DNA of 64,000 nt from Verrucomicrobiota bacterium (GTDB taxonomy: Bacteria > Verrucomicrobiota > Kiritimatiellia > JAKQHR01). The first letter of the stretch is position 1. Each line of letters starts with the position of its first letter. Shown piece by piece: positions 1 to 31,041 of the stretch. The notes beneath the pieces are model-generated. The model was not told the DNA's origin. It did no database searches and worked only from the letters and a program-made list of their open reading frames with translations. The position numbers and the translations under genes are program-made. The stretch lies in the NCBI GenBank assembly GCA_029557905.1, contig JAKQHR010000015.1, positions 1,557 to 65,556 of the forward strand. Direction: 5' to 3'.

Positions 1-549
1 GTGTTTCTCATAGAACTGGGGCAGCAGGCGGGAGCAGCGTTCAATGGGGCCGGCCACCAGCTGGGGGAAGAAACTCACATAGAGGGCGAAAATTCCCAGG
101 TGGCGTTCGGCCTGCTGGCGTCCCCGGTATACATCAATCGAATAGCTCAGGGTCTGAAATGTGTAAAACGAGATCCCCACCGGCAGAAGAAGCTTGAAGG
201 CCGGCACATGGTACATCAGGTTGAAGTGCTCGAAAATCGCCCGCGCGGAGTCATTGAAGAAATTGAAGTACTTGAAGCTGAACAGGAGGCCGAGGTTTCC
301 GGCCAGGCTCAGCATAAGCCATGCTTTCCGCCGCCGGCTGCCGGAAGGCGCGGATACCATTCGCAGGCCCGCGGTATAGTCAATCAGGGTGGAGACGATA
401 ATCAGAACAATGTATTCCGCCTTCCAGCACATGTAGAAATAGTAGCTGGCGGCCAGCAGCAGCGCCCAGCGGAAGCGATGGGGGCAGAGGAAGTAAGCCG
501 CCGTCACCAGCGGAAAGAAAACCAGAAACTCGAGAGAATTGAACAGCAT
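1..549 (-). CDS. MBOAT family O-acyltransferase (AlgI/DltB-like), 5' part only; runs off the left window edge
   Basis: Not in the ORF track. Reverse-strand reading from ATG at 549 gives MLFNSLEFLVFFPLVTAAYFLCPHRFRWALLLAASYYFYMCWKAEY..., nearly identical to the N-terminus of the MBOAT at 1543-3024. Confidence 0.88.
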   Translation of the reverse strand, partial: MLFNSLEFLVFFPLVTAAYFLCPHRFRWALLLAASYYFYMCWKAEYIVLIIVSTLIDYTAGLRMVSAPSGSRRRKAWLMLSLAGNLGLLFSFKYFNFFNDSARAIFEHFNLMYHVPAFKLLLPVGISFYTFQTLSYSIDVYRGRQQAERHLGIFALYVSFFPQLVAGPIERCSRLLPQFYEKH

Positions 550-554
550 ATGTT

Positions 555-1541
555 TTACCTGCAGTTCATTCTCTCCCGCAGCTGTTTTGAAAATGCGGGC
601 GCGCCGTGCCGGCGGTTGAGATGATCTTCATCCATGAAATATTTCGTTTCAAAAACAAAATCGGGATTGGCGGAAAAATCGTAGTATTCCACATTGTGCT
701 TCCTCGCAAGCGCTTTCATGTTGCGGCGGAAGGTCTCGACCATGTTCCGGTCGGCCAGTTCCGTGTAGCGGAAGAAGTAGGGCGGGGTGAAGAAGACCGG
801 GCGGATATCCTGCGCCTGAAGGAAGCGGATCGTCCGTTCAAGACAGGCATAGGTGTCTTCCGGCAAACCCGGACAATTCTGGAGCATGTCGTTCATAAGC
901 TTCGCATGTTCCACTATTCTTGCTTTTTCTGCACGTTCAATCAGCACGTTAATATTCCGGAAACCCTTAAACTGGCGGTCCCGGTTCCGGCTTCCGTCGC
1001 GGGGATTGGATTCCTTCGCTGGCCGCGGCTGCTGTCCGAGCAGGCGAAGCAGGGTGGTATACCCGTGGTCGGGCCGGATCAGGTTGATCAGCCGGGCTTT
1101 CACAAAACTTTGGAAGTCTCCCGGAATCCATTTCCAGCCCGGAAGGTAGGCATACGCTTCCACGCGCTTGGACTTGCGGTCGAGAATCGTGGCCGCCCGG
1201 TTGTCGGCAACGAATGTATGAAATGATACGGCATAATAAACCGTGCGCACCTTGGGCAGCCGGGGAATCAGGGTTTTCAGGTGAAGCTCAGTTTCAAAGA
1301 CATCATTCCCGCCCAGCCAGATATGGTATCCCCGCTCACCGAGGGCATCGAAGTCAATGGCCTTGCAGTGAGAATTCCCGGCCGCGACCGCTTCGATTTC
1401 ATTCGCCTGCCGCAGCAGGTTCTGCATCCGGAATTTGATGTCGGGATAGACCGGATCCATCCGGCTCCACAGGGCGGCGCAGAACAAAACAATTCCGATG
1501 AGCCCGGCCGTGAACAATATACTCTGCTGCAGTTGTTTCAT
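555..1541 (-). CDS. SGNH-fold / DltD-like membrane-anchored acyltransferase partner
   Basis: N-terminal TM helix, block-I-like GNSH and C-terminal DEDHLN (DxxH). Sits between two MBOAT genes. Start reassigned to MKQLQQ at 1541, abutting the MBOAT stop. Confidence 0.65.
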   Translation of the reverse strand: MKQLQQSILFTAGLIGIVLFCAALWSRMDPVYPDIKFRMQNLLRQANEIEAVAAGNSHCKAIDFDALGERGYHIWLGGNDVFETELHLKTLIPRLPKVRTVYYAVSFHTFVADNRAATILDRKSKRVEAYAYLPGWKWIPGDFQSFVKARLINLIRPDHGYTTLLRLLGQQPRPAKESNPRDGSRNRDRQFKGFRNINVLIERAEKARIVEHAKLMNDMLQNCPGLPEDTYACLERTIRFLQAQDIRPVFFTPPYFFRYTELADRNMVETFRRNMKALARKHNVEYYDFSANPDFVFETKYFMDEDHLNRRHGAPAFSKQLRERMNCR

Positions 1542-1542
1542 T

Positions 1543-3024
1543 TCAGAACTGAAAATATATAAACTCCACAACTTCAAAGCGTCCGAAAACAAGGATAGTC
1601 ATGATCAGGCTGTAGTAGATCAGCCAGCGGCACCAGACCGGGCGTTCGGCCAGAAATTCCGAGATGCCCTGCCTGTCATGAATAAGCTGGACCGTTTCCA
1701 TCACCGTGACAGCCGCCACTCCTATGAGCAGTTCCCAGAGGGTGTGGCCGACCACCACGGGTGCAAGGGCGGCCCGTCGAAGATGAAAGACATCGTTCAG
1801 CCATGCCGGCAGGCCGGTCGGCAGGTTCCGGATGATGTGCACAGCCTCCCGGATGTCCGCGGCTCTGAAGAATATCCATCCGAAGAAGAGCAGAAAGAGC
1901 GTCGAGGCGATATTGATGAACCGATGAAAACGCGGGTGTTTTTTCAGCCCGGTTTGCTCGCACCATCTGCGCCGGGTGTTGAAACTGAGATATTCCAGAA
2001 TTAGATAGGTTCCATGGAGTGCCCCGCACGCAATAAAAGTCCACGCGGCTCCATGCCAGAGGCCGCTGATCATGAACACCAGCAGCAGACTGATCACCCA
2101 CCACCGTTTGCTTGTGCTGCGGCCGCAGAGGGGGAGATACAGATAATCACGAAGCCACGTGCTCAGTGAAATATGCCAGCGCTGCCAGAATTCCGTGATG
2201 GAGCGGGAAATAAACGGGCGGTTGAAATTGCGCATGAGATCAAATCCCAGTACGCGCGCGGCGCCGATGGCGATGTCCGAGTAGCCCGAAAAGTCACAGT
2301 AGATCTGCCAGCCGAAAAGAATCCCCGCCACAATATAACTGATCCCCTGCCAGTTCTCCGGCTGGTCGAACACCGCATTCACGAACAGCGCGAGCCGGTC
2401 CGCAATCACCAGTTTCTTGAAGAAACCCCAGAGCATCAGACGGAGCCCGCTGCACATGCGGTCAAAACGGAAGTGGTGCACTGCGCTGAACTGCGGCAGA
2501 AGCCGCGCGGCACGCTCTATCGGCCCGGCCACCAGCTGGGGGAAGAAGGACACATAGAGCGCAAATTTCCCAAAATGTGCTTCGGGCCGCTGGCTTCCCC
2601 GATAAACGTCGATGAGATAACTCATGGTCTGGAATGTGTAGAAAGAAATTCCCACCGGCAGCAGCACGTTGAACGCGGGCACTCCGTAAAAAAGATTGAA
2701 GTGATTGAAGAGCGTCCGGAACGAATCGTTGAAGAAGTTGAAATATTTGAACGCAAACAAAATGGCGAGATTCACGCCCAGGCTCACGGTGAGGCACAGA
2801 TGCCTGCGGGAATCGTTCTGCGGGAGTGTCCCGATGCACAGCCCGCCCCCGTAGCCGGCGAGAGTGGACGCGAGAAGCAGCAGCCCGTATTCCGCCTTCC
2901 AGCACATGTAGAAATAGTAGCTGGCGGCCAGCAGCAGCGCCCAGCGGAAGCGATGAGGGCAGAGAAAGTAAGCCGCTGTAACCAGCGGAAAGAATAAAAG
3001 GAACTCCAGCGAATTAAACAGCAT
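1543..3024 (-). CDS. MBOAT family O-acyltransferase (AlgI/DltB-like)
   Basis: LPVGISFYTFQ, FFPQLVAGPIER, DFSGYSDIAIG, FWQRWHISLSTW and SGLWHGA (catalytic His) motifs. Confidence 0.93.
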   Translation of the reverse strand: MLFNSLEFLLFFPLVTAAYFLCPHRFRWALLLAASYYFYMCWKAEYGLLLLASTLAGYGGGLCIGTLPQNDSRRHLCLTVSLGVNLAILFAFKYFNFFNDSFRTLFNHFNLFYGVPAFNVLLPVGISFYTFQTMSYLIDVYRGSQRPEAHFGKFALYVSFFPQLVAGPIERAARLLPQFSAVHHFRFDRMCSGLRLMLWGFFKKLVIADRLALFVNAVFDQPENWQGISYIVAGILFGWQIYCDFSGYSDIAIGAARVLGFDLMRNFNRPFISRSITEFWQRWHISLSTWLRDYLYLPLCGRSTSKRWWVISLLLVFMISGLWHGAAWTFIACGALHGTYLILEYLSFNTRRRWCEQTGLKKHPRFHRFINIASTLFLLFFGWIFFRAADIREAVHIIRNLPTGLPAWLNDVFHLRRAALAPVVVGHTLWELLIGVAAVTVMETVQLIHDRQGISEFLAERPVWCRWLIYYSLIMTILVFGRFEVVEFIYFQF

Positions 3025-3181
3025 GCCCGATTTCTATCCCTGGTTTTCCCCGGGTTTCACAGTGATTCCTCATGATGGGAACGGATTCTCTGAAAATCCT
3101 TGGGCGTGGGCAAGTCCATAAAGACGGGTTTGTTGTCTCGATGATTGCCATGCCGGGGGGCATCGCGATAGAGTGGACAGC

Positions 3182-4303
3182 ATGAAGATTGCTTTTGTGA
3201 AACAGAAATATGTCCCCTTTGGCGGAGGGGAGCTGTATCTCGAAAGGCTGGCCGGGGCCTGCCGCGACCGGGGGGACGAGGTCCATTTGATTACTGCCGC
3301 CTGGCCGGGGAACAGAGTTTCTGCTTTCACTGTTCATCCTGTTCCTGTTCGAAACTGGTCTCATGCCTCGGTGGCGAGGTCTTTCTCGCACAATCTGAAG
3401 GAGATCATCCGGTCGGTCGGGTTCGATGTGGTCTTCAGTCTGGACCGGACCGAACAGCAGCACATCTGGCGTGCGGGCGAGGGGGCTCATCCGGTCTGGC
3501 TGGACCGCCGCGGCGAATTTGAGCCGGCGTGGAAAGTCAGGCTGGCGCGTCTGTCATCGCGGCAAAGGACCCTGTTGAAGCTGGAGAGGCGATGCGTGAG
3601 CCGGACCCCTGTGATTATCGCGAATTCGCAGATGGTGAAAAATGATCTCGAGAACTGCTATGATCTTTCCGGAAAACGCGTGGAAATAATTCACAATGGC
3701 GTTGATTTTTCCCGCTTTTCTCCGGACGGACGCGAAGAGGCGCGCACCCAGGTGCGCTCACGCTTGCAGGTGAATCCCGACGGCCCGCTGCTGCTGTTTG
3801 CCGGAAGCGGGTTTCGCAGGAAGGGGCTCCCGGAACTGATGCGTGCGCTGCGTGGCGTGCCCGATGCGGTCCTGCTGGTTATCGGCCGGGACAAATCCGC
3901 CCCCTGGATTCGTTTGGCTGCGAGTCTGGGGGTCTCTGGCCGGGTGCGTTTTCTGGCCCCATCCGAATCTCTGCCGGAGCTGTATCGCGCGGCCGATGTG
4001 ACGGTGTTCCCGACATGGTTTGATTCCTTCGGGTTTGTCGGACTCGAGTCCATGGCCTGCGGGACCCCGCTGGTCACGACCCCTTTTGCCGGTGTATCGG
4101 AGCTGGTCCGCGAGGGGGTCAATGGCGCGGTGATCGCGCGCCCGGATGCCGCCGATGAACTGGCGGCGGCCATACAAGACCAGGTTTCCCGGAAAGACAG
4201 GAGCCGGGCCATCGCGGATTCCGTGAGAGAATATTCTCTGGAAAACAACATCCGCCGAACCCTTGCGGTCATAGATGACACCGCGTTCAGCCGCAAATCA
4301 TGA
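3182..4303 (+). CDS. Glycosyltransferase family 4 (WaaG/RfaG-like)
   Basis: GGGE N-terminal motif, RKG, and DSFGFVGLESMACGTP (EX7E-type with Asp in place of the first Glu). Confidence 0.9.
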   Translation: MKIAFVKQKYVPFGGGELYLERLAGACRDRGDEVHLITAAWPGNRVSAFTVHPVPVRNWSHASVARSFSHNLKEIIRSVGFDVVFSLDRTEQQHIWRAGEGAHPVWLDRRGEFEPAWKVRLARLSSRQRTLLKLERRCVSRTPVIIANSQMVKNDLENCYDLSGKRVEIIHNGVDFSRFSPDGREEARTQVRSRLQVNPDGPLLLFAGSGFRRKGLPELMRALRGVPDAVLLVIGRDKSAPWIRLAASLGVSGRVRFLAPSESLPELYRAADVTVFPTWFDSFGFVGLESMACGTPLVTTPFAGVSELVREGVNGAVIARPDAADELAAAIQDQVSRKDRSRAIADSVREYSLENNIRRTLAVIDDTAFSRKS

Positions 4304-5039
4304 GCTTTGCCGGACATGTCCGCCAGCGAAAGCGAAGCACGGGATGTTCAGCCGCGACAGCTCCTGCCATTCGATTGAGAAGCGTGAAATAATATTGATG
4401 AAACATTCTGCTCGGCGAATTTCGCAGAATTTCCGGGGTCAGCCCGCTTCCGGCCGCTTTTGAGATGGCCTCCTTGAGCGTCCAGACTTTGTAGAATGCC
4501 CGCACGCGCTCCGGTTCCGGAAGTTTGCTGATCCTGTTTATTTCTTCCCCGGAACAGGATTTGAGCATCATGCGCTGCAGGTCTCTGACGGGCCTTTCTT
4601 CTTCAATATCAACCCCGACCGGCCATGATTTTGCCAGGGCGAACAGCAGATCGCTCCCGGTATGGGAAACGCTGAAGAACAGCGGGCGAAGGCCGTCCCG
4701 GCTGACCGGCATCATCGGCTGCCCTCCGGCGCTGTACTCCAGCGCGCATGGATACAGCCTGCTTCCGGTATGCAGGCCCAGCAGCCGCCTCAACAGGCCC
4801 CGGCGGATCATGAAACTGTTCTGCGGCTCCTGCCGCAGGAATCTTCCGGCCCGGGCGGCATCATCCGGAGTGAGCCTGCTGCGGGCCGGTTCGAGCAGGC
4901 TGTTTGTGTCCGACAGATCAAAATACCAAAGCTGAATATCGCCCGGCTGCAGCGTGTCGGTTTGGACATTCCACTCTCCGCGCGTGAAGCGGGGCTCTAT
5001 GCATGTTGAATCCGGCATCATCACTCCAGAATAATCCAC
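4287..5039 (-). CDS. Sfp-type 4'-phosphopantetheinyl transferase
   Basis: FSVSHT, VGVDIE and WTLKEAISKA motifs; divergent from an ACP-containing gene. Confidence 0.9.
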   Translation of the reverse strand: MDYSGVMMPDSTCIEPRFTRGEWNVQTDTLQPGDIQLWYFDLSDTNSLLEPARSRLTPDDAARAGRFLRQEPQNSFMIRRGLLRRLLGLHTGSRLYPCALEYSAGGQPMMPVSRDGLRPLFFSVSHTGSDLLFALAKSWPVGVDIEEERPVRDLQRMMLKSCSGEEINRISKLPEPERVRAFYKVWTLKEAISKAAGSGLTPEILRNSPSRMFHQYYFTLLNRMAGAVAAEHPVLRFRWRTCPAKLMICG

Positions 5040-5128
5040 AGTTGATGTCTGTGATCAAGCCCGGGGTGATGGGAACTGGACACACGGTTCATCTTTGAGT
5101 ATGTTCCGGGACTTTCTTTTGGAGCAGG

Positions 5129-7837
5129 ATGAAAGTCAGAGGGGAATACAGGAGCATCATTGACGTGGTTGAGGCGCTGACGGCGACGGATCCCGGCGCT
5201 GCGGCATGCACCTTTCTTGCGGACGGACTGAACGACCGGTGTGCATGGACCCGGCGCGATTTGTACAGCCGCGCCTGTGCGGTGGCCAGAGTTCTGTCGG
5301 ACCGCAAAGCCCGCGGCCAGCCGGCTCTGCTCCTGTACTATCCCGGCCTGGAATTTCTTGCGGCGCTGTTCGGCTGTCTTTTCTCGGGGGTTGTTGCCAT
5401 CCCGGCCTATCCTCCGGGCATCAGCGCGCGTTCCTCGCGGCGAATTGAGAGCATTCTGGAGGATGCCGGTTCGTCACTGATTCTGACCACATCCAGAATA
5501 AGGGAAACGCGCCGCACAAGCATGGACCGTCACTCGGCTCTGCCGCGCCAGGCCTGGATTGAGACTGAACTGATTGCATTGGACTCGGCTGAAGACTGTG
5601 TTCCTGTCCGGGCGCAGGAAAGCGATGTGGCCTATCTGCAGTATACCTCCGGCTCCACATCAACCCCCAAGGGTGTAGTTGTCACCCATGGCAATCTGTT
5701 CCACAACCTCACCTGCATTGACCGGACATTCAATGTTTCCGGCGGGTCCGGAATTGCTTCCTGGATGCCCCACTTTCATGATTTCGGCCTTGTGTTCGGT
5801 CTTCTTGCGCCGATCTTCACGGGAAAGCCCTGCACTCTGATGCCTCCGGCGGTTTTTGTGCAGAATCCGTGGCTGTGGCTGAAGGCCATCTCCGACGCCC
5901 GTGCCAGTCATGCTGCCGCCCCCAACTTTGCCTATGACCTGTGCAATACCCGCATAACAGATGCCCAGCTGGAAACGCTTGATTTGTCCTGCATCACGGC
6001 GCTGCTTAATGGCGCGGAGCCCGTTCGCGCATCCACGCTGGATGAATTCACGCGGCGTTTTGCGGTCTGCGGATTCCGGCGCGAAATGTTTTGTCCCGTG
6101 TATGGCCTGGCCGAGATCACCGTCGGGGCGGTTTGCACCCGTTTTGATGAACCGCCGGTCTGTTTGTCCGTGGATGCGGACGCGATCGAGCAGCACCATG
6201 CTGTGCCCGCGGAGGGGAATGCTCCCAAGAGCCGCCTGCTGGTTTCCTGCGGGCATGAAGTGTTCGGACACCGAATGGAAATTGTGGATCCGGTGGCTCT
6301 TGTGCGCGTACCGAAGGGCGGGGTGGGTGAAATCTGGCTGGATTCTCCCAGCGTGTGTGCGGGGTACTGGAACCGGCCGGATGAAACCCGGCAAACCTTC
6401 CAGGCTTGTCTGGCAGGCACGAATGAGGGGCCGTTCCTGCGCACCGGCGATCTGGGGTTCATGCACGACGGGAATTTGTATATCACCGGCCGCATTAAGG
6501 ACCTCATTATCATTCACGGGGTTAACTATTATCCGCAGGACATTGAGCTGTCGTGCGAGAAGGCGCATCGCGCCCTCAAAGCGAATGCCGGCGCGGCCTT
6601 CTCCGTGGAGCGCGGCGGATCAGAAAAGCTGGTGGTGGTGTACGAACAGGACCGCACCGTGAAAGACCCGGATATCGGCCAGATCGCGATGGCTGTGCGC
6701 CACGCGGTGTCTGAAGAGCATGAGCTGCAGATTTATGACTTCGTCATGGTGCGGCCGGGCACGATTCCCAAGACTTCCAGCGGAAAAATCCAGCGGCATG
6801 CGTGCAAAGCGGATTATCTGAACGGCAGCCTGAAGGTGGTTGCATCCAGCCGGCTTGAAATTGCGGCCGCCGGAGAAAGAAATATCGCGCCACCCGCTGA
6901 TGAAATGGAGCGGCAGCTGGCGCGGATATGGGAGGAAGTCCTCGAGATATCGCCGATCGGGGTGACCGACAACTATTTCGATCTCGGGGGGAACTCGCTC
7001 CATGCCCTGCGTATCATCGGTAAAATTGGAGAGACAACCGGCCGTGAACTGCAGCTGACCGATTTGTTTCAGACTCCGACGATACGCGGAGTGGCTGAGC
7101 TGCTGCGGCGGGCGGACGAAACCGCCGAGTTGATCGCGCTGGTCCCGTTGCAGCCGGCGGGGACATGTACTCCGTTTTTCTGCGTGCATCCAGGCGGCGG
7201 AATGGTCATGTGCTTCAATGATCTGGCGCACAGCGTCGGAAAGGATCAGCCGTTCTATGCTCTGCAGTCGCAGGGTCTGGATGGCCGTCGTTCCCCGCTC
7301 AAGCGTATTGAAGACATGGCCTCTCTGTACATTCGCGAAATAAAAACAGTGCAGCCTGCCGGGCCCTATCGGCTGGGGGGAATGTGCCTTGGCGGGGTCA
7401 TTGCCTATGAAATGGCGCAGCAGCTGGTGCGGCTGGGAGAGCCGGTGGAATTCCTGGGAGTGCTGGATACCCGTCGCCCACCCGGCTGGTACAGACCTCT
7501 GTTCCGCCAGCGCAGGGTGATCAAGGAGTGGCTGGGCATGATATCCCATGCGGGACAGAAGCGTGTGCTGAAGCGGATATGGCTGGCAAACGAGAAAGCC
7601 CGCAACCGGTATCGCCCGGAACCGTACCCCGGGAAAATTACGCTTTTCTGGAGCGATCACGAGGGTGATGAGCAGGCCGACCGGCAGGAAATGTGGCGCA
7701 GACTTGCGCTGGGCGGTCTTGACATAATTCCCATCGCGGGGGCATCGCATCGCGCCATCCTCGCGGCGCCTCATGTGCAGACGCTTGCAGACAGGATCGT
7801 GTCCTGCCTTGAACCTTTCAACGGGATCCGCTCATGA
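5129..7837 (+). CDS. Fatty acyl-AMP ligase - acyl carrier - thioesterase tridomain protein
   Basis: YLQYTSGSTSTPKG, WMPHFHDFGL, YGLAE, FAAL insertion ending LVSCG, LRTGDLG and PKTSSGKIQR; carrier motif DNYFDLGGNSL; TE with HPGGG, GMCLGG and GASH. Confidence 0.9.
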   Translation: MKVRGEYRSIIDVVEALTATDPGAAACTFLADGLNDRCAWTRRDLYSRACAVARVLSDRKARGQPALLLYYPGLEFLAALFGCLFSGVVAIPAYPPGISARSSRRIESILEDAGSSLILTTSRIRETRRTSMDRHSALPRQAWIETELIALDSAEDCVPVRAQESDVAYLQYTSGSTSTPKGVVVTHGNLFHNLTCIDRTFNVSGGSGIASWMPHFHDFGLVFGLLAPIFTGKPCTLMPPAVFVQNPWLWLKAISDARASHAAAPNFAYDLCNTRITDAQLETLDLSCITALLNGAEPVRASTLDEFTRRFAVCGFRREMFCPVYGLAEITVGAVCTRFDEPPVCLSVDADAIEQHHAVPAEGNAPKSRLLVSCGHEVFGHRMEIVDPVALVRVPKGGVGEIWLDSPSVCAGYWNRPDETRQTFQACLAGTNEGPFLRTGDLGFMHDGNLYITGRIKDLIIIHGVNYYPQDIELSCEKAHRALKANAGAAFSVERGGSEKLVVVYEQDRTVKDPDIGQIAMAVRHAVSEEHELQIYDFVMVRPGTIPKTSSGKIQRHACKADYLNGSLKVVASSRLEIAAAGERNIAPPADEMERQLARIWEEVLEISPIGVTDNYFDLGGNSLHALRIIGKIGETTGRELQLTDLFQTPTIRGVAELLRRADETAELIALVPLQPAGTCTPFFCVHPGGGMVMCFNDLAHSVGKDQPFYALQSQGLDGRRSPLKRIEDMASLYIREIKTVQPAGPYRLGGMCLGGVIAYEMAQQLVRLGEPVEFLGVLDTRRPPGWYRPLFRQRRVIKEWLGMISHAGQKRVLKRIWLANEKARNRYRPEPYPGKITLFWSDHEGDEQADRQEMWRRLALGGLDIIPIAGASHRAILAAPHVQTLADRIVSCLEPFNGIRS

Positions 7838-8643
7838 GTGTGCTGGCTGTAAACGTGATCTGCACGTCATATTCAGGCAACACGTGGCTCAATTTGATGC
7901 TGGGCGCGCATTCGCGGGCCTTCTGCGTGGGCGAATACAAAAACATACGCAAGACCGGCCGGGTGAACTGCATGCTTCACGGCGCGGACTGCCCGGTCTG
8001 GAGCCGTTTTGATGCCTCGGCGCAGGAGCATCCGTATCTGCAGCTCAGCCGCCTGACCGGAAAGAACATTCTGGTGATCAGCAATTCACTTGATTATCTC
8101 CCGGCCGATCCCGGACCGGGGATTGAGCAGCGATTCATTCATCTCATTCGCGACGGGCGCGCGGTGGCCGCCAGTTTCAGGCGGAAGCACCGCGGAATGA
8201 ACATCTGGCAGGCTGCCCGCCGCTGGCGGCACGACCACCGGAAAAATCTGCGCCGCCTGAGCCGGCATCCGGCAGAAGCCGTTCTGCCCGTGCGCTACGA
8301 AGAGTTGAAGTCCGACCCCGAGAGAGAAGTGCGCCGCATTTGCGGATTCCTCGGGATCCCCTTTGAACCGTCCATGCTGGAATACTGGACGCGGGACATG
8401 CATTATCTGGGCGGGAATCAGGGCACGCTGCTGGCGCTCGCGCGCAAACAGGGAGGGGATCTGCCCGAGTCCTCGCGCAGGGAGCAGGGCCGGGAGCAGC
8501 GTGACTGGAAGCTGGAATTCTACGCCGGGTCCGATCCTCAGAAGTTTACAGACGACCGCTGGAAAAGCGATCTGACCTCCATTCAGCTTGGGATATTCAA
8601 TTTGGCCGCCGGCGGTTTGAACCGCAGACTGGGCTATCAGTGA
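7834..8643 (+). CDS. PAPS-dependent sulfotransferase family protein
   Basis: SYSGNTWLNLMLGAH (5'-PSB-like), HLIRDGRAVAAS (3'-PB) and VRYEELKSDPEREVRRICGFLG. ATGA overlap with the FAAL gene. Confidence 0.82.
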   Translation: MSVLAVNVICTSYSGNTWLNLMLGAHSRAFCVGEYKNIRKTGRVNCMLHGADCPVWSRFDASAQEHPYLQLSRLTGKNILVISNSLDYLPADPGPGIEQRFIHLIRDGRAVAASFRRKHRGMNIWQAARRWRHDHRKNLRRLSRHPAEAVLPVRYEELKSDPEREVRRICGFLGIPFEPSMLEYWTRDMHYLGGNQGTLLALARKQGGDLPESSRREQGREQRDWKLEFYAGSDPQKFTDDRWKSDLTSIQLGIFNLAAGGLNRRLGYQ

Positions 8644-9849
8644 TTATTCCACTGTAATGCCCAGCGCCGCGAGGGTCTCGTACGTCAGCCCGCCTTCGGC
8701 AATGTCACGGTCCTTCTGGAACTGTGCCACCGCCTCCCGGGTCTGGCCCCCGATCACGCCGTCCACGCCGCCCGTGTTGAAGCCTTGCTCAATCAGGGCT
8801 GTCTGAATCTGGCGGATGATGTCCGGAGAAAGGTTGGATTCGCACAGCACGCGCTTCCAGAGCATCCGGCCGGGTTCCACCATTACCTCTTTCGAAACGG
8901 TCTGATACACCGCCGGAATAATTTTGCGCTCCTCGCGCTCCGGTGCGGTCATCTTCTGCACCCTCACCGTTTCGTATTCGGCCGGCACGGTCACATCGCG
9001 CGTTGTTGCGGGTTTGGTCATTACGTGCTTGCGGATGGTCTCATATTCAGCGGGGACCTGGATTTCCCTGACACTGGCCGGCTCCGCCAGCACGCGTTTT
9101 TTAACCTTTTCGTATACCGGGGGGAGTTCCACCAGGCACAGAATCTCGCCGGTGGCGTTGTCCACTGTGGTGATCAGGCCCGTGCCCTTTTTCCACTCGC
9201 GCCGCGCGGGCTTCACCATCACTTCCTCCTCGACCCACTCATAGCGCGCGGGAATCTCCTCGGTGCGCACAGAGGCGGGAGTCACCAGCACTTCCTCTTC
9301 CACCCATTCATATTCTGCCGGCACAACCTCAAGCTCCGTGGAAGCCTCCTTCACAAGCACTTCTTCCTCGACCCATTCGAACTGCGCGGGGATGACCACG
9401 ATTTCTTCGGACTCCGGCTGGAGAAGCACCTGCTCGGTCACGGTTTCATATCGGGGCGGAATGTGAACTCTGGCATAGCATTCACCGGGCCGGGCGTCCG
9501 GGGGAAGCGCCTCGTCTCCGCCGGCCGACGGTTCAGTCACGGCGGGTTCGATCTCCTCGTTGAACACTTCGGGAGGGGGAATCGCGGCCGGGTCCGGGAG
9601 GGTTTCTGTCTCATCGGCGGGTCCAACCGGCTCTTCTTCGGCATAGGCCGGAACAGCCGGTGCCGGACGGACCGCTATCGTGTGCGCCGGAGGGACATCA
9701 TAGACAACCTCGGCCGGGGGCACGTCCCAGTCGGTCTGCTGCCCCGCCTTTATTTTATAGGCATTGGAGGGCTCGAAAAATTCGCATCCCGCCAGCAGCA
9801 TGACGGACAGTGCGGCGGCCGCGCAGAAGACCAGAGACTTGTTTTTCAT
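8644..9849 (-). CDS. Lipoprotein with Val/Glu-rich repeats and C-terminal peptidoglycan-binding domain
   Basis: Lipobox LAGC; repeated PAEYEWVEEEVLV units; C-terminal IQTAL..GFNTGGVDGVIGGQTREAVAQFQ (PG_binding_1). Confidence 0.8.
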   Translation of the reverse strand: MKNKSLVFCAAAALSVMLLAGCEFFEPSNAYKIKAGQQTDWDVPPAEVVYDVPPAHTIAVRPAPAVPAYAEEEPVGPADETETLPDPAAIPPPEVFNEEIEPAVTEPSAGGDEALPPDARPGECYARVHIPPRYETVTEQVLLQPESEEIVVIPAQFEWVEEEVLVKEASTELEVVPAEYEWVEEEVLVTPASVRTEEIPARYEWVEEEVMVKPARREWKKGTGLITTVDNATGEILCLVELPPVYEKVKKRVLAEPASVREIQVPAEYETIRKHVMTKPATTRDVTVPAEYETVRVQKMTAPEREERKIIPAVYQTVSKEVMVEPGRMLWKRVLCESNLSPDIIRQIQTALIEQGFNTGGVDGVIGGQTREAVAQFQKDRDIAEGGLTYETLAALGITVE

Positions 9850-9923: not shown

Positions 9924-10736
9924 TCAGTCCGGCGGATGGGCCCGCTTCTCAAACCCCATCAGAGCGCCGCCGGTTATGGCCGCGCCGCCGTCCACGGTGA
10001 GAATCTGACCGGTGATCTTCTGTGCATAGGGCCCCAGCAGGAAAGTCACGGCATCCGCCACGGCCTGCTTGTCCTTCAGCGTGTCCCACGGGAGCGGGCT
10101 GACCGTTTCCCAGAGGCTGGTCAGGCTTCCAAAGCCCGGAATTTTGCTGGCCGCCTTGGTGAACAGCGGCCCGGCGGAAACGGCATTCACGCGGATCAGG
10201 TCGCGGCCGTGCCGTCGCGCCAGCGCGCGCACAAGCGCCTCCAGCGCGGCCTTCTGCACCCCCATCCAGTTGTAGTAGGGATACACATGCGCGGTGTCGA
10301 AGCTCAGCGCCACCACCGAACCGCCATCCTTCAAACTGGGCTGCGCATGCCGCAGCACCGTGGCCAGCGAAACGCAGCTGATGTGGTGCGAGAGCAGGAT
10401 GTCGTCAATTTCGCTTGTGTGGAACTCCTCGCCGAGACAGGTGTTGGGATTGGCATAGGCAATGGAATGCACCAGTCCGCGCAGCGGCCCGAGGTCTGCA
10501 AAAAGCTCCTGCACCTCCTCGTCAACCGTCACATCGCAGAACCGCAGATCGAGGGCTTCGATTTCCTGCCGGCTGAGTGCTTCGGCGCGGTCCAGAAAGC
10601 GCTTCTTGAACACTTCATTCTGAACCGTGTAGATCACCCGGCCGCCGAAGCGCTCAATGGTCTTCCCGATGGCAAAGGCCAGCGAATCGGCATCCAGCAG
10701 CCCCATCACCAGATATGTTTTTCCCGCCTCAATCAT
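9924..10736 (-). CDS. fabI: Enoyl-ACP reductase (FabI-like SDR)
   Basis: SLAFAIG, LVHSIAYA, YNWMGVQKAALE (Y-x6-K), RVNAVSAGP and ITGQILTVDGG. Confidence 0.78.
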   Translation of the reverse strand: MIEAGKTYLVMGLLDADSLAFAIGKTIERFGGRVIYTVQNEVFKKRFLDRAEALSRQEIEALDLRFCDVTVDEEVQELFADLGPLRGLVHSIAYANPNTCLGEEFHTSEIDDILLSHHISCVSLATVLRHAQPSLKDGGSVVALSFDTAHVYPYYNWMGVQKAALEALVRALARRHGRDLIRVNAVSAGPLFTKAASKIPGFGSLTSLWETVSPLPWDTLKDKQAVADAVTFLLGPYAQKITGQILTVDGGAAITGGALMGFEKRAHPPD

Positions 10737-10810
10737 GGCATGCTCTCCATTCAAACAGCACACAGCCTACTACACAAATCGCCGTTTGAACAGCCGTCCG
10801 GCCGCAAAAG

Positions 10811-27277: not shown

Positions 27278-27682
27278 ATGAATCTTGATCGTGTGCGCGA
27301 AATTGTCGGGGACGCGGGTTTTGGCATGATGGCCACATCGGTGGACGGTCAGCCCCAGGTGCGAGCCATGGCGTTTGTGCTGCTGGAGGACGGCCGCCTC
27401 TGGAGTTCAACGGTGAACATCAGCGGGAAGGTGGCGGAACTGAAGAAAAATTCCAAAGTGGGGATCTGTTTTCTCGACAGCCGCAAGTCGGAAGTGCGGA
27501 TCGACGGGATTGCCGATATCACCGGCGGCCCGGACAAAAAGAAAAAGCTTCTGGAGCTGAATCCCTACATCAAAAAGCATTTTCCTGACGAAAACGATCC
27601 GAAGTTTGTTCATATTGAAATCGTCCCGACCCGCATCCGGTGGAAGAATGCGGGATTCGGGGAATATACCGAAGTGATCTGA
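27278..27682 (+). CDS. Pyridoxamine 5'-phosphate oxidase-like FMN-binding protein
   Basis: MATSVDGQPQVRAM and KVAELKKNSKV split-barrel motifs. Confidence 0.82.
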   Translation: MNLDRVREIVGDAGFGMMATSVDGQPQVRAMAFVLLEDGRLWSSTVNISGKVAELKKNSKVGICFLDSRKSEVRIDGIADITGGPDKKKKLLELNPYIKKHFPDENDPKFVHIEIVPTRIRWKNAGFGEYTEVI

Positions 27683-27699
27683 TCGAGAAAGGATGAGCC

Positions 27700-28434
27700 A
27701 TGACCAATGTTGTGAATGCGCATGAAACTGAAATGAAGCCGAAAATTGGAATGGCCGTCGCCAGCCTGATTCTGGGGTGCCTGTCCATCGGATACGGATT
27801 GTTTGTTATCGGCGTTCTTTTCGCGGTTCCGGGGCTCATTCTGGGTGTGCTCCATTTCCGGCTGCGCGCAAATTTCCGCGCGATGGCCGTGTGGGGCGCT
27901 GTGCTTTCCCTCCTCGGGCTGCTCCTTTCCGGCTGGGTGGGATACAGCTTTTTCCGCGCCTACCGCGCCGCGTCGGGCGGCGGAAGCAGCTCGTTCGATG
28001 AGTGGCAGGGCGTCGAGGCGCCGGATTTCAGTGTGACCACTCTCGACGGGCAAAAGATCCAGCTGTCGGACCTGCGAGGCAGGCCGGTGATTGTTGACTT
28101 CTGGGCCACCTGGTGCCCGCCGTGTGTGAAGGAAATCCCGCATTTCATCCGGCTGGCCGGTGAATACAGTCCCGATGAACTGACAGTCGTCGGCATCAGC
28201 AGGGAAGAGGAGGCTGTGCTGGCGGAATTCGCCGCGAAGAAGGGGATCAACTATCCGATTGCATCGGCAAACGACTTGCCCGCGCCGTACAGCGAAGTCC
28301 GGTCCATCCCGACCACATTCTTCATAGACGCCGACGGCGTCATTCAGGCCGTGTTCGAGGGCTATCATGACTACGACGCACTCAAAGCCGCCGCCTTTGC
28401 TGAAGATGTCCCGGAAACTGCGCCTGAAGAATAA
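27700..28434 (+). CDS. TlpA-family thiol-disulfide oxidoreductase with DUF4190-like membrane anchor
   Basis: APDFSV..LDG, VDFWATWCPPC and IPTTFFID; N-terminal AVASLILG two-TM segment. Confidence 0.88.
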   Translation: MTNVVNAHETEMKPKIGMAVASLILGCLSIGYGLFVIGVLFAVPGLILGVLHFRLRANFRAMAVWGAVLSLLGLLLSGWVGYSFFRAYRAASGGGSSSFDEWQGVEAPDFSVTTLDGQKIQLSDLRGRPVIVDFWATWCPPCVKEIPHFIRLAGEYSPDELTVVGISREEEAVLAEFAAKKGINYPIASANDLPAPYSEVRSIPTTFFIDADGVIQAVFEGYHDYDALKAAAFAEDVPETAPEE

Positions 28435-28489
28435 AAAATGCCCGCCCGGTGATGCCGGCGGCCTGCGCCCGCGATTTCGTTTTGAGGGC

Positions 28490-29060
28490 CTGAAAAACCT
28501 CAAAAAACGGCCCAAAATGGCCAAAAACAGCCAAAAAACGGCCAAAAATGGTCAAAAACGGCCAAAAAACGCCCAAAAACGGCCTGAAAACGGGTTCTTC
28601 TACGATTTTCGTGGGAACATTGGTCGAAATGGAACTGGCTGCGGGGAAGAAATAAAGAACAGGACACAGCCAGATACAGGAGCTGGGAACATAATTTCCC
28701 GGAGAATCGGCGTGATCATGGCGGCGGTGTAGTAGCGCCTCTGTGAGGCGCATTCTGAAACATATGCCGCTCGCAGAGCGGCTACTACACCAGAACCCCT
28801 GCAAATAAAGGCGTTCCCGGCTGTTGTGATCATGGAACGACGAACATGAAAAGCCGTCTGTGAATTCGTGTGAAAGCGGCGTCCAGCCGCCGCACTCCAA
28901 AGCGCCGCGAAGGTGGCGCAACGTTTATCATTTAACGCCAGAAGTTGATTTGGATATCAAAACCTTCCACGATAATTGACGAAGAACCCAAAAATGGCCC
29001 AAAACGGCCTGAAAACGCCCAAAAACGTGAAAAATTCGAATTAGTACTAATTTAGTACTA
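28490..29060. repeat. Phased A-tract array (about 10-11 bp unit, e.g. CCAAAAACGG) ending in TAGTACTAATTTAGTACTA, copy 1, interrupted by a MITE
   Basis: A4-A6 tracts recur at 28493-28590 and 28990-29037; palindrome at 29042-29060. Confidence 0.85.
28593..28988. mobile_element. Non-autonomous ISL3-like MITE, copy 1 (396 bp)
   Basis: Terminal IRs GGTTCTTCTACGATTTTCGTGG / GGTTCTTCGTCAATTATCGTGG (18/22). Reverse-complement homolog of 63318-63721. No transposase ORF. Confidence 0.72.
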
Positions 29061-29099
29061 TATAACCGCCTCCAGTCTCTGCATTTCCTTCAGCCTTCT

Positions 29100-29460: not shown

Positions 29461-29518
29461 TGTTAGATGTTAAGACCCGACCCCATTAACCATTAAGTAA
29501 CGAAGATACAACCCTAAC

Positions 29519-29525
29519 GTTAGGC
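29519..29525 (+). other. Integron core site R' (GTTAGGC) of a degenerate attC or attI preceding cassette 1
   Basis: ccctaacGTTAGGC is the exact complement of the R'' GCCTAAC closing cassette 1. The upstream arm is not clearly recognisable. Confidence 0.7.
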
Positions 29526-29540
29526 ATTAAGGAGACAGCT

Positions 29541-30301: not shown

Positions 30302-30316
30302 TACAGATGAGAGGAA

Positions 30317-30904: not shown

Positions 30905-30924
30905 TATTCCTTGTCTGAACAATA

Positions 30925-31028: not shown

Positions 31029-31041
31029 GGGATGATAAATC

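What the first reader, a model, noticed from the sequence alone, without database searches (positions are those of the whole stretch)
1..8643. dlt-like acyl-transfer cluster: FAAL-ACP-TE + PPTase + two MBOATs + SGNH/DltD-like + GT4 + sulfotransferase
Seen: seven contiguous genes encoding an adenylating enzyme with fused carrier, its own PPTase, two membrane acyltransferases, an extracytoplasmic GNS...DxxH protein, a glycosyltransferase and a sulfotransferase. Established: this matches the logic of DltA/DltC/DltB/DltD and AlgI/AlgJ, and FAALs load fatty acids onto carriers. Inference: a fatty-acyl (not D-Ala or acetyl) version that builds an acylated and sulfated glycolipid or surface glycan. 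There is no KS or condensation domain, so it is not a standard PKS/NRPS or olefin synthase. I do not recognise this combination as a described pathway.
Basis: partly seen in the sequence, partly recalled or inferred. Interest (0 to 1): 0.82.

Follow-up and report, generated by a model that had tools for sequence, protein, structure and literature searches.

The report
Two adjacent cell-envelope modification gene modules
The seven genes are real, but they are best read as two separate cell-surface modification kits lying side by side in a Kiritimatiellia genome: an uncharacterised fatty-acid-loading, sugar-adding and sulfating module, and ordinary membrane acyltransferase pairs, with no evidence for a fatty-acid version of the Dlt relay.

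Summary
Observation confirmed; interpretation partly supported. However, the genes lie in four divergent or convergent transcription units, and the first MBOAT is cut by the window edge.

Module A consists of a WaaG-like GT4, an Sfp-type PPTase, FAAL-ACP-TE and a sulfotransferase. GT4, PPTase and FAAL-ACP-TE travel as a block in three Kiritimatiellia lineages (50-76% identity) whose flanks are otherwise unrelated, with a sulfotransferase (two different subfamilies) next to FAAL in each. More distant Cys-type FAAL-ACP-TE homologues again sit among glycosyltransferases, sulfotransferases and glycan exporters. The TE has an intact Cys753/Asp780/His874 triad and is NRPS/Pks13-like, not CurM-like.

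Module B consists of MBOAT plus a DltD-fold SGNH partner, duplicated. It is absent from the 50% relatives of module A and occurs elsewhere as a stand-alone gene pair. Every MBOAT of this family ends in FIYFQF, the fused FxYxxF acyl-shuttle motif of acyl-CoA-dependent PatA/AlgI-type MBOATs. DltB lacks that motif and needs DltX and DltC instead.

Best reading: module A makes a fatty-acylated, sulfated glycoconjugate (LPS core or glycolipid) in the cytoplasm. Module B separately O-acylates a surface polymer. The product is unknown. The finding is moderately interesting.

The parts
1..546 (-). MBOAT2. Only the N-terminal 182 aa are present; the gene runs off the left edge of the window. The full 494-aa copy in the identical contig L008 ends in FIYFQF.
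   Evidence: Translation. 73% identical to MBOAT1. 100% match to L008. C-terminus read.
555..1592 (-). X1, a membrane-anchored DltD-fold SGNH-like protein. The likely true start is ATG at 1541 (328 aa). It has an N-terminal TM helix at aa 21-45 and a putative triad of Ser74/Asp321/His324 (345-aa numbering).
   Evidence: Weak Pfam GDSL_2/DltD hits. Invariant G72/S74/H75 and H324 in A3. AF2 pLDDT 79.9. Foldseek top 12 hits are DltD. Hydropathy.
1543..3024 (-). MBOAT1 (493 aa), a PatA/AlgI-type membrane-bound O-acyltransferase. It has the WH motif with His284 and the C-terminal acyl-shuttle hexapeptide F488-I-Y490-F-Q-F493.
   Evidence: PF03062 E 4e-32. DltB structures 6bug/8jem E 6e-31. C-terminal FIYFQF. 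Motif meaning taken from PMC12148441.
3173..4303 (+). GT4 glycosyltransferase, WaaG-like. It is soluble, is transcribed divergently from MBOAT1, and converges on the PPTase gene with a 17-bp overlap.
   Evidence: Pfam Glycos_transf_1 and Glyco_transf_4. Best PDB match is WaaG/RfaG 2iv7, E 2.6e-29, aa 5-355 aligned to 2-352. 52-54% identical orthologues sit next to FAAL in L002 and L004.
4287..5039 (-). Sfp/HetI-type 4'-phosphopantetheinyl transferase, transcribed divergently from FAAL-ACP-TE.
   Evidence: PF01648 E 2e-14. NCBIfam HetI E 1e-25, below cut-off. The same position and orientation are seen in L001-L005, L008 and L009.
5129..6853 (+). FAAL (fatty acyl-AMP ligase) domain of the tridomain protein, aa 1 to about 575.
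   Evidence: Best PDB match is the olefin-synthase FAAL domain 7r7e-g, E 4e-151, aa 5-572. Next are the Legionella FAAL and FadD32. NCBIfam FAAL families score E 1e-131 to 1e-105, against 1e-46 or weaker for acyl-CoA ligases. 7R7E identity taken from PMC11837247.
6896..7108 (+). Carrier (PCP-like ACP) domain. The phosphopantetheine site is Ser623 in GGNSL.
   Evidence: PF00550 E 1.9e-13, aa 596-659. The Ser is invariant in A1. Position.
7166..7837 (+). Thioesterase domain with a Cys nucleophile: Cys753 (GGMCLGG), Asp780, His874.
   Evidence: PF00975 E 7.5e-27. Cys and His are invariant in the Cys clade. PDB neighbours are NRPS TEs and the Pks13 TE. No CurM TE hit at E<=0.01.
7834..8643 (+). 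PAPS-type sulfotransferase (269 aa). Its start overlaps the FAAL-ACP-TE stop by 4 bp. The 5'-phosphosulfate-binding loop is unusual: SYSGNTW, with Tyr13 where Lys/Arg is usual. It has a 3'-PB motif at R106...S114 and a candidate base at Glu34.
   Evidence: PF13469 E 1.6e-18. Best PDB sequence hit is the CurM ST, E 9e-8. AF2 pLDDT 91.9. Foldseek top hit 4gbm, E 3e-9, TM 0.55. Loop conservation.

Best explanation
Two envelope-modification modules lie side by side.

Module A (3173-8643) works in the cytoplasm.
1. The Sfp-type PPTase converts the carrier domain (Ser623) to its holo form.
2. The FAAL domain adenylates a free long-chain fatty acid and loads it on that carrier without using CoA.
3. 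The in-cis thioesterase takes the acyl group on Cys753 and passes it to a hydroxyl or amine of a sugar-containing acceptor rather than to water.
4. The WaaG-like GT4 builds or extends that acceptor. The acceptor is an LPS core or a membrane glycolipid.
5. The sulfotransferase adds sulfate from PAPS.
The product is a fatty-acylated, sulfated glycoconjugate.

Module B (<1-3024, continuing left of the window) is two paralogous PatA/AlgI-type MBOAT plus DltD-fold SGNH pairs.
1. Each MBOAT takes a short acyl group, most likely acetyl from acyl-CoA, onto the Tyr of its own C-terminal FIYFQF motif.
2. It hands the group to Ser74 of its SGNH partner outside the membrane.
3. The SGNH partner esterifies a surface polymer.

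The ACP of module A does not feed the MBOATs.

Shown here: domain identities, catalytic residues, gene order, and conservation or non-conservation across relatives. Inferred: the fatty-acid substrate, TE acting as a transferase, the acceptor, the sulfation site, and the acyl donor of the MBOATs.
For: Module A is a conserved block.
- GT4, PPTase and FAAL-ACP-TE keep the same order and orientation in the window clade (L001, L008, L009), in L002/L003 and in L004/L005. The flanks are unrelated.
- GT4 has diverged in step with FAAL: 52-54% against 50-58% identity.
- A sulfotransferase sits next to FAAL in all three lineages, but from two subfamilies only 23-25% identical to each other. That argues for functional recruitment rather than inherited synteny.

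Distant Cys-type FAAL-ACP-TE homologues also lie in glycan contexts.
- L174 (Nostoc): two TPR-sulfotransferases, a GT1-family GT and Wzm/Wzt.
- L175: five GT2 genes, an ABC exporter and a NodB-type deacetylase.
- L007: a GT4+GT2+GT2 giant protein.
- L006: APS kinase, Wzy, Wzz and Poly_export.

Enzyme features of module A.
- The FAAL identity is strong.
- The TE triad is intact and Cys-type.
- TE neighbours in the PDB include Pks13 TE, which to my knowledge (not tested here) transfers the acyl chain to a sugar.
- GT4, PPTase and ST have no TM segments.
- GT4 is closest to WaaG. L002-L005 add a Kdo/WaaP-family kinase.

Module B.
- The X1 model's top 12 PDB matches are DltD.
- The Ser and His are invariant across the family; the Asp is conserved in 7 of 8 sequences.
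- Every MBOAT of the family ends in FIYFQF. This is the FxYxxF motif fused to acyl-CoA-using MBOATs, while DltB relies on DltX and DltC (PMC12148441).
- MBOAT-X pairs stand alone in L170 and L171.
- The X family has 279 clusters at E<=1e-30.
- L009 has one pair where the window has two.
Against: - No product, substrate or acceptor is known, and nothing here is biochemical.
- The context sample is small: six independent FAAL-ACP-TE lineages and two independent MBOAT-X contexts. Most contigs are short, so an MBOAT-X pair elsewhere in those genomes cannot be excluded.
- In the window clade the two modules are adjacent and divergently transcribed in all three genomes. They may therefore act on the same glycoconjugate even without a relay.
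- The WaaG similarity is only 105.6 bits, and no NCBIfam WaaG model passes its cut-off.
- The sulfotransferase lacks the usual Lys/Arg of the PAPS-binding loop, so its activity or donor could be atypical.
- A TE with a Cys nucleophile could instead hydrolyse, or form a lactone.
- The fused FxYxxF motif shows the MBOAT class. It does not by itself prove that the donor is acyl-CoA.
Confidence: 0.5

Rival explanations
1. One reading: a fatty-acyl Dlt-like relay. FAAL loads the ACP. The ACP docks on the MBOAT as DltC docks on DltB. The acyl group crosses the membrane to the DltD-like protein and then to a glycan made by GT4 and sulfated by ST.
For: - X1 is structurally closest to DltD.
- MBOAT1 is closest in the PDB to DltB.
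- An adenylating enzyme, a carrier and a PPTase lie within 2 kb of the MBOAT operon in all three genomes of the window clade.
Against: - The MBOATs end in FIYFQF, the fused shuttle motif of carrier-independent PatA/AlgI-type MBOATs. There is no DltX-like microprotein and no free-standing carrier.
- The carrier is fused between FAAL and an intact TE.
- No MBOAT-X lies within 10 kb (less in the shorter, contig-limited loci) of FAAL-ACP-TE in L002-L007, L174 or L175.
- MBOAT-X occurs alone in L170 and L171.
- DltB is essentially the only bacterial MBOAT of this kind in the PDB search, so 'best hit DltB' does not discriminate.
Confidence: 0.08
2. A KS-less terminal-olefin (CurM/OLS-like) route. 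FAAL loads a 3-hydroxy fatty acid on the ACP. The sulfotransferase sulfates the 3-OH. The TE releases the chain with decarboxylative loss of sulfate, giving a 1-alkene.
For: - The FAAL domain's best structure match is the olefin-synthase FAAL (7r7e, E 4e-151).
- The ST's best sequence and fold matches are the CurM ST and OLS ST.
- ST is translationally coupled to FAAL-ACP-TE by a 4-bp overlap.
- A FAAL-ACP-ST-TE fusion exists among the homologues (P0031).
Against: - The TE is NRPS/Pks13-like with a Cys nucleophile. No CurM TE match appears at E<=0.01.
- P0031 belongs to the Ser-type clade and sits beside a large PKS.
- ST similarity to the CurM ST is remote: 20% identity, TM 0.55. Tyrosylprotein sulfotransferases score nearly as well.
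- In L002-L005 the adjacent ST is a different subfamily on the opposite strand.
- The co-inherited GT4 is left unexplained.
Confidence: 0.07
3. FAAL-ACP-TE is a lipid-remodelling or fatty-acid-salvage enzyme that works like Aas. It re-activates free fatty acids and re-esterifies them to lysolipids or lipid A. GT4, ST and the kinase are neighbouring LPS-core genes with no shared product.
For: - The layout 'adenylation domain plus bound carrier plus transferase' parallels Aas. NCBIfam PRK08633, acyl-[ACP]--phospholipid O-acyltransferase, is among the hits at 91.6 bits.
- L006 has FAAL-ACP-TE without GT4, PPTase or ST, and with PagL about 6 kb away.
- GT4 is WaaG-like.
Against: - GT4-PPTase-FAAL synteny survives complete turnover of the flanks in three lineages.
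- Sulfotransferases of three different subfamilies are recruited next to Cys-type FAAL-ACP-TE genes in Kiritimatiellia and Nostoc.
Confidence: 0.15

Closest known systems
PatA/PatB, AlgI/AlgJ(X) and WssH/WssI MBOAT-SGNH O-acetyltransferase pairs
   Same: - A multi-pass MBOAT with the WH histidine.
- A C-terminal FxYxxF acyl-shuttle hexapeptide (FIYFQF).
- A membrane-anchored SGNH partner with Ser...DxxH encoded immediately downstream.
- No carrier protein in the operon.
   Different: - The SGNH partner is a family of its own. It has no Pfam or NCBIfam hit above cut-off and is structurally nearer to DltD than to PatB or AlgJ.
- The pair is duplicated in tandem.
- The operon ends with a lipoate-protein-ligase-like gene.
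- The target polymer is unknown.
Dlt pathway (DltA, DltC, DltB, DltX, DltD)
   Same: An adenylating enzyme, a phosphopantetheinyl carrier, an MBOAT and a DltD-fold protein all lie within 8 kb.
   Different: - The adenylating domain is a FAAL, not a D-Ala ligase.
- The carrier is fused to a TE rather than free-standing.
- The MBOAT carries the shuttle motif itself, so no DltX is needed.
- The two halves do not co-occur in relatives.
Olefin synthase (Ols) and the CurM ST-TE off-loading module
   Same: A FAAL-ACP loading unit most similar to the Ols FAAL. The sulfotransferase's nearest solved relatives are the CurM and Ols STs. A terminal TE is present.
   Different: - There is no KS-AT-KR to create the 3-hydroxyl.
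- The TE is of NRPS type with a Cys nucleophile and is not CurM-like.
- The ST is a separate protein with a Tyr in the PAPS loop.
- A GT4 is co-inherited.
Mycobacterial FadD32/Pks13 TE (acyl transfer to trehalose) and sulfolipid-1 biosynthesis (FadD23, Pks2, PapA1/2, Stf0)
   Same: The logic 'FAAL loads a carrier, a TE-type domain esterifies a sugar, a sulfotransferase sulfates it'. The Pks13 TE is among the TE domain's PDB matches (E 5e-14). The descriptions of the mycobacterial pathways rest on my own knowledge.
   Different: - There are no PKS extension modules and no PapA acyltransferases.
- The GT4 is WaaG-like rather than a trehalose synthase.
- The organism is a Gram-negative PVC bacterium.
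- The sulfotransferase family is different from Stf0.
Nod-factor biosynthesis (NodF/NodE/NodA, NodC, NodB, NodH/NoeE, NodIJ)
   Same: A dedicated carrier-bound fatty acid is attached to an oligosaccharide, which is then sulfated and exported. The L002 ST hits NoeE weakly. The L175 context has GT2 genes, a NodB-type deacetylase, an ABC exporter and FAAL-ACP-TE. The Nod pathway description rests on my own knowledge.
   Different: There are no NodA, NodC or NodE homologues. Acyl activation is by FAAL and transfer is by a TE domain.

Membership tests
Dlt D-alanylation system | MBOAT (DltB) without a C-terminal FxYxxF motif, plus a separate DltX microprotein that carries the motif | tested here: not met
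   MBOAT1, MBOAT2 and all five relatives read end in FIYFQF*. Criterion taken from PMC12148441.
Dlt D-alanylation system | Small free-standing carrier protein (DltC) loaded by a DltA-type ligase | tested here: not met
   The only carrier is aa 596-659 of the 902-aa FAAL-ACP-TE protein. The adenylation domain matches FAAL families at E 1e-131.
Dlt D-alanylation system | DltD-type SGNH partner with a Ser/His/Asp triad | tested here: met
   The top 12 Foldseek hits are DltD, E 6e-6 to 5e-4. S74 and H324 are invariant, and D321 is conserved in 7 of 8 sequences.
Dlt D-alanylation system | Ligase/carrier genes and MBOAT/SGNH genes co-inherited | tested here: not met
   MBOAT-X is absent near FAAL-ACP-TE in L002-L007, L174 and L175. 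FAAL is absent near MBOAT-X in L170 and L171.
Acyl-CoA-dependent MBOAT-SGNH pairs (PatA/PatB type) | Invariant MBOAT histidine and a C-terminal FxYxxF motif with the acyl-accepting Tyr | tested here: met
   WH motif at 283-284. F488-I-Y490-F-Q-F493 is conserved in all relatives. Pfam MBOAT E 4e-32.
Acyl-CoA-dependent MBOAT-SGNH pairs (PatA/PatB type) | SGNH partner encoded next to the MBOAT, with no carrier in the operon | tested here: met
   X follows the MBOAT with gaps of at most 8 bp in the window and in L008, L001, L009, L170 and L171.
Acyl-CoA-dependent MBOAT-SGNH pairs (PatA/PatB type) | Acetyl-CoA (acyl-CoA) as the donor | not testable with these tools
   This needs a labelling assay with [14C]acetyl-CoA.
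Fatty acyl-AMP ligase (FAAL) | Closer to FAALs than to acyl-CoA ligases over the whole adenylation domain | tested here: met
   7r7e E 4e-151, 3kxw E 7e-115, FadD32 E 1e-96. NCBIfam FAAL models score E 1e-131 to 1e-105, against 1e-46 or weaker for FACL models. All are below the equivalog cut-offs.
Fatty acyl-AMP ligase (FAAL) | FAAL-specific insertion that blocks CoA ligation | not tested
   Implied only by the gap-poor end-to-end match to the Ols FAAL structure (aa 5-572 aligned to 5-569). No explicit alignment to an acyl-CoA ligase was made.
Fatty acyl-AMP ligase (FAAL) | Transfer to a holo carrier, with a PPTase available | tested here: met
   Fused PP-binding domain with Ser623, and an adjacent Sfp-type PPTase conserved in the three closest Kiritimatiellia lineages.
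CurM/Ols ST-TE olefin-forming module | CurM-type TE partnered with the ST | tested here: not met
   No CurM TE match at E<=0.01. Best hits are NRPS TEs. The nucleophile is Cys753.
CurM/Ols ST-TE olefin-forming module | Upstream KS-AT-KR that makes a 3-hydroxyacyl-ACP | tested here: not met
   No such domains are found in the window or in L001-L009.
CurM/Ols ST-TE olefin-forming module | Activating sulfotransferase of the CurM/Ols branch | tested here: inconclusive
   Best PDB hit by sequence (E 9e-8) and by fold (E 3e-9, TM 0.55, 20% identity). Tyrosylprotein STs score nearly as well.
WaaG LPS-core glucosyltransferase | Orthology to WaaG, with a heptose-containing core acceptor | tested here: inconclusive
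   WaaG is the best PDB hit, end to end, at E 2.6e-29; the next family scores 1e-20. No NCBIfam LPS model passes its cut-off. The acceptor is not testable here.

The most novel reading that the evidence does not exclude
Cys-type FAAL-ACP-TE tridomain proteins define an undescribed, widely scattered route found in Kiritimatiellia, cyanobacteria and other bacteria. In this route a thioesterase domain acts as a carrier-to-sugar acyltransferase. Together with a dedicated GT and a sulfotransferase it produces a new class of sulfated acyl-glycolipid, or a sulfated and extra-acylated LPS core. In this genome that product might be further O-acylated outside the membrane by the neighbouring MBOAT-SGNH pairs.
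Probability: 0.3. Interest if true: 0.7.

Novelty: new variant of a known kind. Interest (0 to 1): 0.45.

Why it matters
If module A works as proposed, it would be a compact, CoA-independent way for Gram-negative bacteria to attach free fatty acids to a sulfated envelope glycoconjugate. It would also give a function to a family of FAAL-ACP-TE proteins that is common in cyanobacteria and PVC bacteria. The four full-text searches run here on this gene combination found no description of it. Sulfated, lipidated surface glycans affect charge, phage and predator recognition, and particle attachment in marine and sediment bacteria.

The negative result also matters. The C-terminal FxYxxF test gives a quick sequence criterion for separating Dlt-type (carrier-fed) from PatA/AlgI-type (acyl-CoA-fed) MBOATs when similar clusters are flagged.

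Tried and rejected
1. A genome-contig scan and a metagenome-contig scan with ACP-TE alignments returned only generic NRPS PCP-TE termination modules at 31-42% identity.
2. Four full-text paper searches for the gene combination or for 'FAAL-ACP-TE' found nothing relevant. A fifth search, for Kiritimatiellota with LPS and sulfotransferase, also returned nothing useful.
3. A sequence search of X1 against the PDB found nothing. Only the fold search identified the DltD relationship.
4. The 158-aa ORF at 3014-3490(-) was considered as an eighth gene. It was rejected because it has no family hit, overlaps the GT4 start on the opposite strand, and is not called in L008.
5. I looked for a Kdo/WaaP-like kinase, a second sulfotransferase, or copies of the lipoate ligase-like or E1-lipoyl-FabH genes inside the window; none was found. 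The 20 larger ORFs scanned between 18 and 60 kb are housekeeping or have no family hit.
6. The olefin-synthase reading was examined and down-weighted.

Full report
**Gene map**

The ORF list, frame translations of the left edge and family scans give the following genes.

| Coordinates | Strand | Gene |
|---|---|---|
| <1-546 | - | MBOAT2, first 182 aa only |
| 555-1541 (longest ORF to 1592) | - | X1, membrane-anchored GNS...DxxH protein |
| 1543-3024 | - | MBOAT1 |
| 3173-4303 | + | GT4 glycosyltransferase |
| 4287-5039 | - | Sfp/HetI-type PPTase |
| 5129-7837 | + | FAAL-ACP-TE, 902 aa |
| 7834-8643 | + | sulfotransferase (ST) |
| 8644-9849 | - | lipoprotein with a PG_binding_1 domain |
| 9924-10763 | - | FabI |

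The genes form four transcription units, not one:
- MBOAT1-X1-MBOAT2 on the minus strand, with gaps of 8 bp or less.
- GT4 alone on the plus strand.
- The PPTase on the minus strand, converging on GT4 with a 17-bp overlap.
- FAAL-ACP-TE plus ST on the plus strand, with a 4-bp overlap.

The ORF at 3014-3490(-) has no family hit and is not called in the identical contig, so I treat it as spurious. The 20 larger ORFs scanned between 18 and 60 kb are housekeeping or have no family hit, and the stretch up to about 17.8 kb is known from the L008 gene calls. The nearest named homologue is from a Kiritimatiellia MAG.

**What lies beyond the left edge**

Contig L008 is 99-100% identical to the window. 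On it the minus-strand operon continues as MBOAT1-X1-MBOAT2-X2, then a 268-aa lipoate-protein-ligase-like gene. That gene is followed by a 1103-aa fusion of 2-oxoacid dehydrogenase E1 alpha and beta, a lipoyl domain and a FabH-type KAS III. The start at coordinate 1 is therefore an artefact of the window. A 76% relative, L009, has only one MBOAT-X pair, orthologous to MBOAT2/X2. The pair fully inside the window is therefore a lineage-specific tandem duplicate. MBOAT1 and MBOAT2 are 59% identical overall. Their first 164 nt are 87% identical.

**Module A is a conserved block**

Gene neighbourhoods of FAAL-ACP-TE homologues show that GT4, PPTase and FAAL-ACP-TE keep the same order and orientation in three groups:
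- the window clade (L001, L008, L009; 73-99% identity);
- L002/L003 (53% identity);
- L004/L005 (50% identity).

Everything outside the block differs. In L002 the upstream genes are leuCD and an RNase H-like gene. In L004 they are fpg and a DUF1722 gene. In the window it is the MBOAT operon. The GT4 orthologues are 52-54% identical to one another, the same divergence as the FAAL proteins at 50-58%.

A sulfotransferase is adjacent to FAAL in all three groups. In L002-L005 it lies on the opposite strand and belongs to another subfamily. That subfamily is 23-25% identical to the window ST and has a canonical GRSGTT loop. It is followed there by a Kdo/WaaP-family kinase. Two unrelated ST subfamilies at the same place argue for function rather than inherited synteny. 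The window itself holds only one ST in 64 kb.

**More distant relatives**

Among the top 50 FAAL-ACP-TE homologues the TE nucleophile is Cys in about 30 and Ser in about 20. The window protein belongs to the Cys group (GGMCLGG). The contexts of Cys-type members are as follows.

| Locus | Context |
|---|---|
| L174 (Nostoc) | TPR-sulfotransferase directly upstream, a second ST, a GT1-family GT, Wzm/Wzt |
| L175 | last gene of an operon with five GT2 genes, an ABC exporter and a NodB-type deacetylase |
| L007 (cyanobacterial, 67% to L174) | next to a 1468-aa GT4+GT2+GT2 protein |
| L006 | APS kinase, Wzy, Wzz and Poly_export within 10 kb |

In total, five of the six independent lineages have glycosyltransferase genes nearby, and the sixth (L006) has glycan polymerisation and export genes. 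Four have a sulfotransferase. None outside the window clade has an MBOAT within 10 kb.

The Ser-type fusion FAAL-ACP-ST-TE (P0031) sits beside a PPTase and a large PKS. It belongs to polyketide chemistry.

**Anatomy of FAAL-ACP-TE**

- The adenylation domain matches the FAAL domain of the Picosynechococcus olefin synthase (7r7e-g) at E 4e-151 over aa 5-572. The Legionella FAAL and FadD32 follow (identity of 7R7E from PMC11837247).
- NCBIfam FAAL models score E 1e-131 to 1e-105. Acyl-CoA ligase models reach only 1e-46.
- The carrier has the PCP-like GGNSL motif with Ser623.
- In the TE, Cys753 and His874 are invariant in the Cys clade; position 780 is Asp in most members and Glu in two.
- Against the PDB, the TE matches NRPS TEs (7dxo, E 2e-23; 4zxh; NocB) and the Pks13 TE (5e-14). 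It does not match the CurM TE at E<=0.01.
- Hydrolysis of the loaded acyl group would be a futile ATP-consuming cycle. Transfer to an acceptor is therefore the more sensible role. This is an inference.

**GT4 and ST**

GT4's best solved relative is WaaG, the LPS-core glucosyltransferase, aligned end to end at E 2.6e-29. The next family scores 1e-20. Together with the Kdo/WaaP-like kinase in L002-L005, and possible heptose-pathway genes (a CTP_transf_like and an epimerase, assigned from Pfam names only) downstream in L004, this points to LPS core as a candidate acceptor. No curated LPS model passes its cut-off.

The ST model is confident (pLDDT 91.9). Its best fold match is the CurM ST (E 3e-9, TM 0.55, 20% identity). 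Tyrosylprotein STs are close behind and the Ols ST ranks 14th. Its 5'-phosphosulfate loop reads SYSGNTW, with Tyr where Lys/Arg is usual. This S[YF]SG[ST]TW form is conserved in most of the roughly 38 homologues at 39-100% identity (about 30 match it exactly). The 3'-phosphate motif RDGRAV...S and a Glu after the loop are also conserved. The protein is under selection but atypical.

GT4, PPTase and ST have no hydrophobic segments. The single one in FAAL is a core strand of the fold. Module A is therefore cytoplasmic.

**Module B**

X1 has only weak Pfam hits and no PDB sequence hit. An eight-sequence alignment shows an invariant G-x-S-H (Ser74) and His324. The C-terminal DxxH is conserved in seven of the eight sequences. 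The AlphaFold model has pLDDT 79.9. Its 12 best PDB matches are all DltD structures, followed by SGNH esterases.

A profile search of 1.84 billion representatives finds 279 clusters at E<=1e-30 and 1768 at E<=1e-10. X is thus a sizeable unannotated family. Two distant members (32-34% identity) sit directly downstream of an MBOAT. These are stand-alone pairs with no ligase, carrier, PPTase or ST nearby (L170, L171).

**The decisive test of 'dlt-like'**

PMC12148441 reports the following.
- DltB takes D-Ala from the carrier DltC and passes it to a Tyr in the FxYxxF motif of the separate microprotein DltX.
- The other bacterial MBOAT-SGNH systems (PatA, AlgI, WssH) lack a carrier and lack DltX.

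MBOAT1 ends ...VVEFIYFQF*. So do MBOAT2 (read in L008), both MBOATs of L001, the single MBOAT of L009, and the MBOATs of L170 and L171. These are therefore PatA/AlgI-type MBOATs.

Three lines of evidence agree. The MBOATs are of the carrier-independent class. The only nearby carrier is fused to its own TE. The two blocks do not co-occur in relatives. On that basis I rate the ACP-to-MBOAT relay as unlikely (0.08).

The two modules are adjacent in all three genomes of the window clade. They may still decorate the same surface molecule.

**Most likely mechanism**

Module A:
1. The PPTase primes Ser623.
2. FAAL adenylates a free long-chain fatty acid and loads the carrier.
3. Cys753 of the TE takes the acyl group and transfers it to a sugar hydroxyl or amine.
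4. The WaaG-like GT4 builds the acceptor on the inner face of the membrane. The acceptor is LPS core or a glycolipid.
5. The ST sulfates the acceptor from PAPS.

Module B: each MBOAT self-acylates Tyr490 from an acyl-CoA through His284. It then hands the group to Ser74 of its SGNH partner, which esterifies an extracytoplasmic polymer.

Domain identities, catalytic residues and conservation patterns are shown. Substrates, acceptor and product are inferred. Confidence is 0.5 overall. It is about 0.75 for the separation into two modules and about 0.4 for the chemistry of module A.

**Rivals**

- The Dlt-like relay (0.08) is discussed above.
- A KS-less olefin route (0.07) would explain the Ols-like FAAL and the CurM-like ST. 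It fails on the TE type, on the non-orthologous ST in L002-L005, and on the co-inherited GT4.
- An Aas-like lipid-salvage role, with GT4 and ST as unrelated neighbours (0.15), fits L006. It does not fit the block conservation or the repeated recruitment of STs.

**Comparison with known systems, and novelty**

Module B is a new member of the MBOAT-SGNH family, with a DltD-fold partner. Module A works like the mycobacterial FadD32/Pks13-TE and sulfolipid-1 pathways, or like Nod-factor synthesis. In those pathways a carrier-bound fatty acid is put on a sugar that is then sulfated. These pathway descriptions rest on my own knowledge. Module A shares no orthologous transferases with them.

A review of FAAL architectures lists stand-alone, didomain and multidomain PKS/NRPS forms. 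The passages I searched in it (terms: thioesterase, sulfotransferase, glycolipid, lipopolysaccharide) do not mention a FAAL-ACP-TE tridomain paired with a GT and an ST. The other searches found nothing either. I rate the finding as a new variant of a known kind, with interest 0.45.

**What led nowhere**

The two large collection scans returned only generic NRPS termination modules. All context evidence therefore rests on twelve contig look-ups, and most of those contigs are short. No biochemical inference here has been tested.

Noticed in passing
Left of the window: L008:1-2936 (same genome); full copy at L009:1190-4501(-): The MBOAT-X operon ends with a lipoate-protein-ligase-like gene (268 aa; TIGR00545 at 229 bits, below the cut-off of 280). 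It is followed by a 1103-aa single protein that fuses 2-oxoacid dehydrogenase E1 alpha and beta, a lipoyl domain and a FabH-type KAS III (PRK09352 at 254.6 bits, above cut-off). There is no E2 catalytic domain. This could prime fatty-acid synthesis from 2-oxoacids without CoA. It seems unusual to me, but no literature or homologue search was run on it.
   Followed up: partly
window 7867-7887 (ST aa 12-18): The sulfotransferase's PAPS 5'-phosphosulfate loop reads SYSGNTW, with Tyr in place of the canonical Lys/Arg. The Tyr/Phe form is conserved in about 38 homologues (39-100% identity). More distant relatives have His or Arg at that position.
   Followed up: partly
window 1-549 and 2488-3024: The MBOAT-X pair is duplicated in tandem. 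The first 164 nt of the two MBOAT genes are 87% identical, against 73% further in, and X1/X2 are only 44-46% identical. This may reflect gene conversion at the 5' ends. A 76% relative (L009) has a single pair.
   Followed up: partly
window about 27600-33600: A low-GC stretch (0.49-0.51, against about 0.60 elsewhere; GC3 0.43-0.65) contains ORFs mostly without Pfam hits plus a trypsin-like peptidase. It may be a horizontally acquired island.
   Followed up: no
window 8644-9849 (-): A lipoprotein-like protein carries about seven degenerate internal repeats of the form (V/I)PAEYE(W/T)VEEEVLV and a C-terminal PG_binding_1 domain. It is conserved next to the ST only in the window clade.
   Followed up: no
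P0031 / L173:10001-14269: A FAAL-ACP-ST-TE four-domain protein (1422 aa, Ser-type TE) lies next to a PPTase and a 2610-aa PKS. This is an olefin-type off-loading pair fused directly to the loading unit.
   Followed up: partly
L010-L089 (genome-contig hits): Cys-nucleophile TE domains (GxCxG) are fairly common in terminal NRPS-like modules of soil and cyanobacterial genomes. They make up roughly one in four or five of the modules read. The Cys is therefore not unique to this family.
   Followed up: no
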